Positions 55,587-60,889 of a stretch of DNA of 64,000 bases are shown here, piece after piece (the first letter of the stretch is position 1; every line of letters begins with the position of its first letter). The notes beneath the pieces were generated by a model. The model was not told the origin of the DNA. It saw only the letters and a program-made list of their open reading frames with translations, and made no database searches. This DNA is from Paramecium tetraurelia (taxonomy: Eukaryota). The stretch covers positions 124,001 to 188,000 of the forward strand of contig CT868074.1 in NCBI GenBank assembly GCA_000165425.1, read 5' to 3'. The translations under genes and the position numbers were made by a program.

Positions 55587-56797
<1,211 letters not shown>

Positions 56798-57495: not shown

Positions 57496-58720
57496 TCAAA
57501 ATTAATTGAAATGCTAATTAACCAAACCCATGACCTTGTTACAAAAATCCTTAAAAACAACTGGATGACCTCTGTATAATTGGAAATCGAGCAAGTGATC
57601 ATTATCATTGCCAGGTATCTAATTGTATAATAAGAGAAATACTTTGTAAATTTGAATGTTGAATATAATCTCTCTTGGAATATTCTTTTTCCTTACTTTT
57701 TGGTTTGATTTCGTTGTTTTCCTCTTTGAAATTAGGAGAAGTCAACTCACTCATATTTTGATCCTTTCTTCTCTTTTTCCTTTTGAAATTCATTGAATAA
57801 CCCAATATTCTAAATGTATTTAGTCATTTTAATCAAGTTCCTATGATAACACTTCAATTTAAAATCTGGTTAGTATTAAACTTCTATAAGCAGGTTTAAA
57901 TTGCATTTATGATTTATCTAGCCTAATATGGATAAATAACAGCCAAGGCATCCTTGGTTAGATCTTTCCCATAATCGTATGGAGCAGGCTTTTGGATTTC
58001 TTAGAGTCGAACATTTTCGAATGATTACCAGTCCAATTATTGTATTTTAGGATTGAATATCAAATCTTGTGTAGTTAAGTTATGCAGAGTCGTTGATGAT
58101 TCAATTCCCATCTATACTTACAGTAAATCATGGATCACCACGAATGATTTATCTTTTCTCTTTTGGGTATGCAATTTTAGATTTAATTATGAGACATTCC
58201 GGATGTCCTTAGATATTTTCCATCTTTCATAAAATTGCTGAGACCAAAATCAGCTGTTTTCACGACGTAATTATGATTTATCAATATATTTCAGGTTTAA
58301 GATCTCTATGAACAACAAGATTATTGTGGCGATATTCAATTCCACTTAATATTCATAAAAAGTAATTACGAGCTTCTGCCTCTGACAATTTACCTTTTTA
58401 GGCAATCAGATCAAATAGTTCACCTCTTTTGTGCATATTCCATTACTAAAAGTTGTCGTCAGGAGTATCAAATACTTCGTATAGTTTAATCACATTTGGA
58501 TGATTGAATTATCTCAGCAGCCTTATCTGACTTCTAATCTTAGCTTCCATTTTTGAGTTCTTTATCATTTTTTTGTTGATGATTTTAATTACTACTTAAG
58601 TGTTTGTGATATTGTTCTATATCACGTACACTTCGCTTTCCCAAAAGCACTTACACCTAAACCACCTCTTTCTATTATATAATGTTCAATTTATGGTGGG
58701 GCTTTACCTTATGATTACAT
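57496..58720 (-). pseudogene. AMPK-alpha/SNF1 kinase pseudogene
   Basis: HPNVIKLYEVFDTP, GELFDLI, VVHRDLKPE, ADFGLSNFMKDGKYLRTS and C-terminal HLLDFQLYRGHPVVF; multiple frameshifts, and kinase subdomains VIII-XI are deleted. Confidence 0.88.
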
Positions 58721-58846: not shown

Positions 58847-59873
58847 ATGATTAATTATCATATAAACACACTAAGAGGAATAGCTACAGACTATACGTCA
58901 GTTTTATTTGAGGATTTATTCTTCGATAAGAGTCATTTGAGCACTAATAAAATGGGTGCCATAAGTCTTTAGAATCTTGAATAATTAAGAGCTGATCCAA
59001 AGTCTATTATGGACAATTTGGTTATTAATGATGTGAATCAATTAGTACATGAATTGTCAAGTATGCCCTAATGTCTTATATGCACATCGTGTAATGATTT
59101 TGATAAAATGAATCGATTACTTTAATATTGTTAGCACATTGATATAGCCATTGGATATCAACACAACATCTCAAAATAGTTGAATAATCTGCCTCTTTAT
59201 TCAGTTGATAACCTAATCAAGAAATTAGAAATGGAAATAACCATGGGAACTAACAATCTAAAACCGGCATTTATAGGAATAATCAACTATGAAGAAATAG
59301 ATTTTAACAATCAAATTTGGATTAATATCATGGAGAGTTATATCTACTGTTCTGAGAGTTGTGGAATACCAATAGTGGTTGATCATAATCACAGATTGGA
59401 ATTCAAGGAGATTCAGCAAAAATATAATTTAAGAAAAGCCAAATTCATCATTCTAAATCCATATGTAGAAGTCAAGATTACAAAATAAAACTATTTTATA
59501 AAAAGAGAAATCAATATTGAGTCTGTTGATTTAAAATAGAAGATTGTGTTCAATAAAAACGAAGTGGACTATGAGTTGTATAGTTTATTGCCTGTCTATT
59601 TTACAGTTGGTATTAAGCATAAAACTCATTTGAAAATGTTTGGAGGTAATGGATTTGAGATTGTGAAATCAGAGACACAGGAGTTGTTCGATCTATTGAA
59701 GTGGTCTAGTTAGATTATCAAGATAGTGGAAATAAAAATGTGGAAATGTCCTATGTAATGAAATTGAATTAAAGAGTAGTTGTCAAAAAGAACAAGGAGA
59801 GAATGAAGAGAGATTCAAGAAGATGGGAAAAGAGTTCTGTAGCATGAAATGTTTGAGATAAGGATTGAATTGA
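58847..59873 (+). CDS. Phosphotriesterase-related (PTER-like) protein lacking metal ligands, with a C-terminal treble-clef Zn finger
   Basis: ISLQNLEQLRADPKSIMDNLVI, SVDNLIKKLEMEITMG..KPAFIG, CGIPIVV and IKHKTHLKMFGGNGF match PTER-family motifs. After a 25-nt intron (59755-59779) the tail reads WKCPICQKEQGENEERFKKMGKEFCSMKCLR. Confidence 0.8.
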
Positions 59874-59915: not shown

Positions 59916-60889
59916 ATGGATCAGAAGACTGAAAAGGCACTACTCGAATAATAGAATGAATTACTCGAGTTATAGTTATAAGAATTAAGGGAGAGAGAGG
60001 ATGGATACAAAATGTTTAATGAAACAATTCTAAATGCCTATAATTCAATGCAAAACGATGTTAATAAATAGAATGTAAAGTTAAAGTCCTATGCTTGTAG
60101 AGTTTAGTGTATAAACAGTTATAGTAGACTTTGGAATAATATTCTTAGGAGCTGATAGAATCTAAAAATAGGAACACTACGGTTCTAACCTAACTGGAAA
60201 AGGAGAATCGATACTTAAAAAACTATTTGGAATAGTTAGAATTCAAGATCTAAGAATAAACTTAAGTGTAGGAAAATGAACTTTCTGATTTGGAATAACA
60301 ATTTGAAGCTCTGCAATAACAGTAAGAAAGTACAATTGTTGTTAAGCCTAAGAAAAAGAGAACACAATAGGATAAGGAAAATAATAAACCTGAATAAGGA
60401 GGTGGAGGATGCATTGTGTCTCTTAAGCCTAAAAATGATGAAATTAAAAAGAAGGAGTTGTGCATCAGCAATGTGTTAAATTGTAGGGATTCCAATGTGA
60501 TGGAGATTTCTCATTTGGATTGGTTGGATTCAAATTCTCCCACTGGATTATTCAAACAATTTCAACTACACCAAAGAGGAAGGGATCGCTCTGATCATTC
60601 TTAAAGGACGCAGCAACCTCAATTATCTAAGAGAATCTTCAGGGATTAAGGAAGGAGTGAGGATAGTGTGAGTCCTCAATGTATGAGGAATGTGACTCCT
60701 AAAAATAATTATATTACTCCAGAGTCGAAATAGTTAAAATATGATGTGCAATAGGGCTTGATAAACAAGGCTGAACCCAATCCATAAAAGGCTGAGAAGA
60801 GGTCTTTGGCTGAATTTACTAAACAAATTAATTCTGTTAGATCAACTGAGAATTTTCAAATGATGCTCAGATAGAGTTCTATGGTTTGA
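59916..60889 (+). CDS. Coiled-coil / low-complexity protein, unknown function
   Basis: MDQKTEKALLEQQNELLELQLQELREREDGYKMFNETILNA... ending MMLRQSSMV*; one probable intron near 60075. Confidence 0.75.

What the first reader, a model, noticed from the sequence alone, without database searches (positions are those of the whole stretch)
58847..59873. Metal-site-dead phosphotriesterase-like fold fused to a CxxC...FCSxxC treble-clef zinc finger
Seen: PTER-family motifs run along the protein, but the catalytic positions appear replaced. The HxH ligand motif reads FED, GEIG (bridging Glu) reads GIIN, and the xHD Asp reads TVG. Splicing the 25-nt intron yields CPICQK-x(15)-FCSMKC. Established: PTE/PTER amidohydrolases need these ligands for a binuclear metal centre. 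CxxC..FCSxxC is the signature of TRASH/FCS/VATC-type treble clefs, and VATC was described on the Vms1/ANKZF1 ribosome-rescue factors. Inference: this intact gene encodes a pseudoenzyme reused as a ligand sensor or adaptor, possibly linked to protein quality control. I do not know of a characterised protein with this architecture.
Basis: partly seen in the sequence, partly recalled or inferred. Interest (0 to 1): 0.7.

Follow-up and report, generated by a model that had tools for sequence, protein, structure and literature searches.

The report
Dead hydrolase barrel with zinc finger
This Paramecium gene is real, spliced and shared with distant ciliates: it encodes an enzyme-shaped protein in which all six metal-binding positions of the active site are replaced while a small zinc finger is kept, so it likely works as a non-catalytic docking adaptor whose partner is still unknown.

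Summary
Confirmed. Window 58847-59873 (+, ciliate code) is a transcribed, single-copy Paramecium gene; the 25-nt intron 59755-59779 is left out in RNA-type contigs of two studies, and four other Paramecium species hold the ungapped 333-aa product (84-96% identical). Profiles made only of its relatives match sponge PTER (9EFA, E 2e-20), and a model of the orthologue matches PTER-type barrels (Z 23). PTER's substrate contacts are gone too. The fusion is a family, not a one-off: Stylonychia, Halteria, 18 metagenome loci, and an ESM Atlas cluster (91 members, commonest Oomycota) already auto-labelled PTE+VATC. Across 15 full-length members no more than 3 of 6 ligands survive, the catalytic Asp is Gly in all 15, and the finger is the best-kept part. 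A non-catalytic adaptor is the best reading (0.6); a ligand sensor is disfavoured because the pocket is not conserved. The link to ribosome rescue rests only on the shared finger, though Paramecium's own Vms1 lacks one. No paper describing the family was found.

The parts
58847..59754 (+). Exon 1: residues 1-302 and two bases of codon 303; PTER-type barrel (about 1-288), linker, first Cys of the finger
   Evidence: stranded RNA reads cover it
59755..59779 (+). 25-nt GTA...TAG intron inside the CxxC knuckle; if retained the frame stops after residue 304 and the finger is lost
   Evidence: left out in contigs of runs X3 and X4, kept in the contig of X6
59780..59873 (+). Exon 2: residues 304-333 and TGA stop; rest of the zinc finger
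58907..58915 (+). F21-E22-D23 in place of PTER His27-x-His29 (strand 1)
   Evidence: ligand list from PMC12873775
59279..59281 (+). I145 in place of the bridging Glu174 (strand 4)
59381..59383 (+).
59456..59458 (+).
59609..59611 (+). G255 in place of the ligand and general base Asp303 (strand 8); Gly in 22 of 23 family rows that cover it
59741..59852 (+). C4 treble-clef-type finger W-x-C-x2-C-x10-F-x-K-x4-F-C-S-x2-C (W299, C301, C304, F315, K317, C323, C327), split by the intron

Best explanation
The gene encodes a PTER-type barrel whose six metal-ligand positions are all replaced, fused to a conserved four-cysteine zinc finger, and it likely works as a non-catalytic adaptor that docks on a protein or RNA partner through the finger and the barrel's outer surface. 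Shown: gene, splicing, fold kinship, loss of ligands and of substrate contacts, family-wide loss of the catalytic Asp, conservation of the finger. Inferred: an ancestral PTER-like hydrolase gained the finger and lost its general base early (Asp to Gly in nearly all sampled members); freed from catalysis, the other ligands then eroded differently in each lineage, furthest in Paramecium, which also shed about 20 residues before strand 8 and about 14 after it. What selection keeps is the scaffold and the finger, so binding rather than chemistry is the likely job. The partner is not identified; the ribosome-rescue/Cdc48 machinery is the only named lead.
For: 0 of 6 canonical ligands in all five Paramecium proteins; 1-3 of 6 in the ten other full-length members, in different combinations; 6 of 6 in 47 of 48 bacterial/archaeal PTER-like controls (the HxH and HD positions were built into the control selection, but the three unselected positions are kept in 47, 48 and 48 of 48). 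Arg at the two taurine-contact positions: 1 of 15 and 0 of 15 family rows against 28 and 31 of 48 controls; Tyr at the oxyanion position 2 of 15 against 29 of 48 (counted). Identity to the P. octaurelia protein is 43-67% in the finger and 17-28% in the barrel for ten distant members; for the two found with a barrel-only query (P0009, P0010) it is 63 against 28% and 43 against 24%. Strong conservation inside the genus with no frame break. No canonical PTE-family gene rang in the own genome, so it is unlikely to be a regulatory subunit of an active paralogue there. Amidohydrolase-fold pseudoenzymes that act as scaffolds exist (CRMP proteins, recalled; CRMP-5 is row 23).
Against: No partner, location or phenotype was tested. 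D23, D179 and N204 remain at ligand positions and could hold one ion; two members (P0033, P0035) keep H,H,E plus a Glu at the fourth position. Six of the ten distant members were found with a finger pattern, which inflates finger conservation. No oomycete sequence could be retrieved, so their sites are unexamined.
Confidence: 0.6

Rival explanations
1. It is a dedicated cofactor of ribosome rescue or Cdc48-linked quality control, supplying in trans the treble clef that Vms1/ANKZF1 carries in animals, plants, fungi, amoebozoans and stramenopiles. This is a narrower case of the adaptor reading.
For: VATC is the best Pfam family for 12 of 12 fingers scanned. Both Vms1 copies in the own genome ring for bVLRF1; the one read in full is F-box + VLRF1 and ends without a finger, as PMC6514570 section 2.2 reports for some ciliates.
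Against: The finger's role in Vms1 is not stated in the section read, and yeast Vms1 can lack it. The same paper puts the finger on stramenopile Vms1, while the Atlas puts PTE+VATC proteins in Oomycota, so the two coexist there. Pfam's VATC model may have been built with these fused proteins among its members (not checked), which would make the match partly circular. No VIM or VLRF1 domain in this protein.
Confidence: 0.15
2. It is a small-molecule sensor: the dead pocket still binds a metabolite and the finger passes on the signal.
For: Polar residues persist at two ligand positions (D/E/N/S at His206; Asn at His235 in 16 of 22 rows that cover it); a family-specific Tyr104 and the strand-8 loop motif are conserved.
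Against: The other pocket positions vary freely between lineages (F/S/D/H/G/A at the first His, I/V/P/E/Q at the bridging Glu) and PTER's substrate contacts are absent; a shared ligand should hold them steady.
Confidence: 0.12
3. It is still an enzyme with a remodelled, oxygen-rich or single-metal site acting on another substrate, at least in some lineages.
For: P0033 and P0035 keep H,H,E and have Glu and Asn at the next two sites; P0007 keeps HEH and GEI; 98% of the Atlas cluster carries PF02126, so oomycete members may be closer to the canonical enzyme.
Against: The general-base Asp is Gly in 22 and Asn in 1 of 23 rows; in Paramecium hydrophobic F21 and I145 replace two ligands, including the bridge; no other His/Cys position of the barrel is invariant.
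Confidence: 0.1
4. The barrel is a decaying relic or the gene a pseudogene.
For: Long branch to Paramecium (2.41 changes per column); two internal deletions; the duplicate copy from the genome duplication has been deleted.
Against: Same 333-aa length and 84-96% identity in four other species, transcripts and splicing, relatives in spirotrich ciliates and many metagenome loci.
Confidence: 0.03

Closest known systems
PTER / N-acetyltaurine hydrolase (sponge PTER, PDB 9EFA/9EFB; PMC12873775, PMC11374699)
   Same: Same barrel with the helical insertion after strand 1; best PDB sequence match of the family profiles (E 3.5e-15, 1.7e-20); Z 23.1, rmsd 2.9 over 269 residues for the model.
   Different: None of His27, His29, Glu174, His206, His235, Asp303 is kept; Tyr131, Arg209, Arg238 and His305 positions are not conserved; PTER has no C-terminal finger; about 16% identity.
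Bacterial PTER-like amidohydrolases (3K2G from Rhodobacter, Pmi1525 3RHG/4QSF)
   Same: Top fold matches, Z 23.4 and 22.6 over 268 residues; shared K-x2-L-x3-GG-x-G loop after strand 8.
   Different: The 48 bacterial/archaeal controls keep the full ligand set and have no finger; the finger-bearing proteins fall on one side of a 100%-supported branch against 30 of them (quick tree, no eukaryotic PTER included).
VATC/VTC treble clef of Vms1/ANKZF1 (Pfam PF18716; PMC6514570)
   Same: Best family for every finger tested; over the 26.6-bit cut-off in P0010, P0011, P0030, P0032, P0038, P0039, P0042.
   Different: Attached to a dead PTER barrel, not to a VLRF1 release factor with ankyrin repeats and a VIM; Paramecium fingers score 17-19 bits, under the cut-off.
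FCS-type fingers (PHC1 2L8E, ZMYM5 2DAS, L3MBTL2 2W0T)
   Same: The only solved structures that match both halves of the finger profile.
   Different: Weak matches (E 0.056, 0.19, 1.5); chromatin proteins with other spacing; no solved VATC domain turned up.
CRMP/DPYSL proteins (amidohydrolase-fold pseudoenzymes; role recalled, not read)
   Same: Works-like analogy: amidohydrolase barrel without its metal site, used as a scaffold.
   Different: Derived from dihydropyrimidinase, only Z 10.9 to the model (4B90), no zinc finger; not a member.

Membership tests
PTE/PTER family (PF02126) | PTE-type (beta/alpha)8 barrel, with the PTER helical insertion | tested here: met
   Profiles A2 and A3, which hold no canonical PTER, match 9EFA over the whole barrel; the Atlas's own model of the Stylonychia member gives TM 0.72/0.79 to a PTER cluster; model of P0019 Z 23 (its alignment held 48 PTER-like rows, so this last test is not independent).
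PTE/PTER family (PF02126) | Pfam gathering score for the protein itself | tested here: not met
   No PTE hit for exon 1, P0003, P0005, P0019; relatives P0011 (22.4), P0033 (39.5), P0042 (24.4) reach the 22.4 cut-off.
PTE/PTER family (PF02126) | Binuclear metal site His, His, Glu (or carboxy-Lys), His, His, Asp | tested here: not met
   F21, D23, I145, D179, N204, G255: 0 of 6.
PTER (N-acetyltaurine hydrolase) | Substrate and catalytic contacts Tyr131, Arg209, Arg238, His305 | tested here: not met
   H106, H182, V207, K257 here, and variable across the family.
PTE/PTER family (PF02126) | Metal-dependent hydrolase activity | not testable with these tools
   Needs purified protein.
VATC treble clef (PF18716) | Four cysteines as CxxC ... 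[FY]CSxxC, conserved | tested here: met
   C301, C304, C323, C327 invariant in 18-19 non-redundant rows; same spacing in P0009 and P0010, found without the finger in the query.
VATC treble clef (PF18716) | Pfam gathering score 26.6 | tested here: inconclusive
   17-19 bits in Paramecium, over the cut-off in seven relatives; best family for 12 of 12 fingers.
VATC treble clef (PF18716) | Treble-clef fold and bound zinc | tested here: inconclusive
   Model shows two short hairpins and a C-terminal helix at pLDDT 86-93, the expected arrangement (recalled), but the fold searches were filled by the barrel and no finger-only model was made.
Vms1/ANKZF1 release factors | VLRF1 peptidyl-tRNA release domain | tested here: not met
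   Absent from this protein; PF18826 rings at two other places in the genome.

The most novel reading that the evidence does not exclude
An old eukaryotic pseudoenzyme family, kept in ciliates and oomycetes, in which a dead PTER barrel carries the Vms1-type treble clef and serves as an unrecognised component of ribosome-associated quality control, standing in for the finger that ciliate Vms1 lacks.
Probability: 0.15. Interest if true: 0.75.

Novelty: new variant of a known kind. Interest (0 to 1): 0.45.

Why it matters
It adds an undescribed pseudoenzyme branch to the PTE/PTER family, with a visible gradient of decay (3, 2, 1 and 0 of 6 ligands) after one shared loss of the catalytic Asp, which makes it a clean case for studying how an enzyme turns into a binding protein. 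It also gives a second, single-copy, RNAi-accessible host for the VATC finger, whose function was not stated in the literature I could read; finding this protein's partner would test what VATC does in ANKZF1. Practically, the database record of this gene (269 aa) misses the first 35 residues and the finger, and 'phosphotriesterase' labels on the ciliate relatives are likely misleading.

Tried and rejected
Single-sequence Pfam and PDB searches of exon 1: no hit. Single-sequence AlphaFold of P0003: pLDDT 32, unusable. Direct BLASTP of exon 1 against a bacterial PTER-like protein: E 0.017 only. Complex prediction of barrel (1-288) with finger (294-333) and zinc: no answer, score 0.00, alignments not used; no evidence either way. 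Run search: no RNA holder listed on record; raw reads of 58 nt listed no joint. Three homologue searches did not reach any oomycete sequence. The finger pattern in viral contigs gave 19 loci, none with the barrel. Own-genome search with PF18716 gave two weak hits (E 0.37, 0.6) and missed this intron-split finger, so it cannot count fingers. A functional link to the neighbouring SNF1/AMPK-like kinase was considered and dropped: that copy is broken and no kinase or downstream-gene match lies in 12 family loci of 1.1-5.1 kb. A role as regulatory subunit of an active PTER paralogue: none found with these two queries. The original Vms1 paper (PMC6226276) is not held. Earlier findings of the scan: nothing relevant.

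Full report
Observation. The window reads as a Paramecium genome in the ciliate code: the best named matches are proteins of P. primaurelia, P. sonneborni, P. octaurelia and P. pentaurelia. The frame from ATG 58847 is open under table 6 for 302 codons. A 25-nt GTA...TAG intron lies at 59755-59779; without it the gene has 333 codons and no internal stop, and the four orthologues are 321, 304, 300 and 279 of 333 identical without a gap. Stranded RNA reads of two runs (175 and 110 laid) cover the gene with the first mate on the minus strand, as expected for a plus-strand RNA, and dip at the intron, but list no joint. In a second lay, contigs of runs X3 and X4 (two studies; RNA by guess) leave out exactly 25 letters at 59755, the contig of X6 keeps them, and the raw reads of X21 are uninformative at depth 1. 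The database record of this very gene (P0004, 269 aa) starts at Met36 and ends in the intron, so it lacks the finger. The gene is single copy; at the duplicated locus on contig C380 both flanks are present but only 309 bases apart, with a decayed remnant of exon 2.

Fold. Alone, the protein hits neither Pfam PTE nor any PDB sequence. A barrel-only HMMER search of 1.84 billion representatives gave 6 proteins, two of which (P0009, P0010) end in the same finger. Profiles of such relatives, with no canonical enzyme in them, match sponge PTER 9EFA at E 2.5e-6 (8 rows), 3.5e-15 (13 rows) and 1.7e-20 (19 rows), followed by 3K2G and 3RHG. The ESM Atlas's own model of the Stylonychia member matches a PTER cluster at TM 0.72/0.79. 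An AlphaFold model of the P. octaurelia orthologue from a 76-row alignment reached pLDDT 83, pTM 0.78 and matches 3K2G, 9EFA and 4QSF at Z 23.4, 23.1 and 22.6, rmsd 2.7-2.9 over 268-269 residues (Foldseek agrees). That alignment held 48 PTER-like rows, so the model is support, not independent proof.

Metal site. Passages of PMC12873775 give the sponge PTER ligands as His27, His29, Glu174, His206, His235 and Asp303, with Asp303 the general base, Tyr131 and His305 catalytic helpers and Arg209/Arg238 taurine contacts; passages of PMC11374699 report that many active-site point mutants abolish activity. Both the HMMER alignment to 9EFA and the multiple alignment place F21, D23, I145, D179, N204 and G255 at these six positions. 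All five Paramecium proteins keep 0 of 6; ten other full-length members keep 1 to 3, in different combinations; 47 of 48 bacterial and archaeal controls keep all six. The controls were picked with a pattern holding the His-Asp pair and filtered for HxH, so only the other three positions are a fair test: 47, 48 and 48 of 48. The Asp position is Gly in 22 and Asn in 1 of the 23 family rows that cover it. The substrate contacts are not conserved in the family. No His or Cys elsewhere in the barrel is invariant; H180 is confined to Paramecium and H182 is lost in P. sonneborni. Paramecium has also lost about 20 residues between strands 6 and 8 and about 14 after the strand-8 loop relative to other members. 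I could not inspect model coordinates, so shifted ligands are excluded by alignment only.

Family. Named members with Pfam PTE+VATC are in Stylonychia and Halteria, plus EukProt 403362297. A DNA pattern for the finger returned 120 metagenome loci (about 200 exist; the scan stopped at 38 of 64 parts) and 19 viral-contig loci; 18 of the 120 and none of the 19 have the barrel upstream (E 1.4e-12 or better); the rest match the finger region weakly or not at all. Thirteen of the 18 read in the ciliate code, five in the standard code with lineage unknown; two are near-duplicates of others. The Atlas lists a 91-member cluster auto-named PTE family/VATC, commonest phylum Oomycota (known for 24 members), and a 203-member unnamed cluster as nearest neighbours (scores 0.90 for the Paramecium protein, 0.96 for Stylonychia); I could not retrieve those sequences. 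In a quick tree of 17 family barrels (one, P0007, is a fragment whose finger is not seen) and 30 of the 48 controls, the family lies on one side of a 100%-supported branch; long branches meet there and no eukaryotic PTER was included, so origin and root are open.

Finger. W-x-C-x2-C-x10-F-x-K-x4-[FY]-C-[ST]-x2-C is kept with fixed spacing; the Trp is invariant in 12 of 12 although the pattern allowed other residues. VATC is the best Pfam family for 12 of 12, over the cut-off in seven relatives but 17-19 bits in Paramecium. Solved FCS fingers match only weakly. The finger is far better conserved than the barrel (43-67% against 17-28%), partly by selection of the sample, but also in the two members found without it. 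[quoted passage not shown] The own genome has two Vms1 copies; the one read is F-box + VLRF1 with no finger.

Mechanism. Shown: an intact, spliced, conserved gene whose PTER-type barrel cannot build the PTER metal centre. Inferred: the family lost its general base early and has since let the pocket drift while holding the scaffold and the finger, which is what a binding protein would do. I commit to a non-catalytic adaptor (0.6). A role in ribosome rescue (0.15) is a narrower version resting on the finger alone; a ligand sensor (0.12) and a remodelled enzyme (0.10) are weaker because the pocket is not conserved, though members keeping His-His-Glu leave the latter open.

Novelty. Ten paper searches found no description of a PTE-VATC protein; apart from the four papers opened (PMC6514570, PMC12873775, PMC11374699 and bioRxiv 10.1101/2025.04.24.650466, whose main text lacks the terms and whose supplements are closed) I saw listings only, and the library lacks most subscription journals. 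The architecture is already visible in automatic annotation, both parts are known folds, and pseudoenzymes of this superfamily exist (recalled), so this is a new variant of a known kind: real, undescribed as far as I could find, testable, of moderate interest.

Noticed in passing
window about 57750-58700, minus strand: The head-to-head neighbour is a broken SNF1/AMPK-alpha-like kinase copy (frameshifts, in-frame TGA stops, about 400 bases missing against the intact copy on C380) that still has RNA reads; the two duplicated loci show reciprocal loss, this one keeping the PTER-finger gene and C380 keeping the kinase.
   Followed up: partly
window 59755-59779: Intron retention ends the protein at residue 304 and removes the finger; one of three RNA-type contig sets (X6) keeps the intron, so a finger-less or NMD-targeted form may exist.
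   Followed up: partly
L004 (G000:C380, about 362580-362671): Decayed, frameshifted remnant of exon 2 just upstream of the duplicated downstream gene; it is included in RNA-type contigs of X3 and X6.
   Followed up: partly
L275:1474-2620 and L276: Two retained Vms1/VLRF1 genes; L275 has an N-terminal F-box-like segment (18.7 bits, under the cut-off) and no treble clef.
   Followed up: partly
window about 55861-56797, plus strand: Gene with a bromodomain at its C-terminus and an acetyltransferase-like N-terminal part, GCN5-like by recalled motifs.
   Followed up: no
window 59916-60889, plus strand: Downstream coiled-coil gene starting 42 bases after the stop, with loose read ends at 60074 that suggest an intron there; no confident Pfam family.
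   Followed up: no
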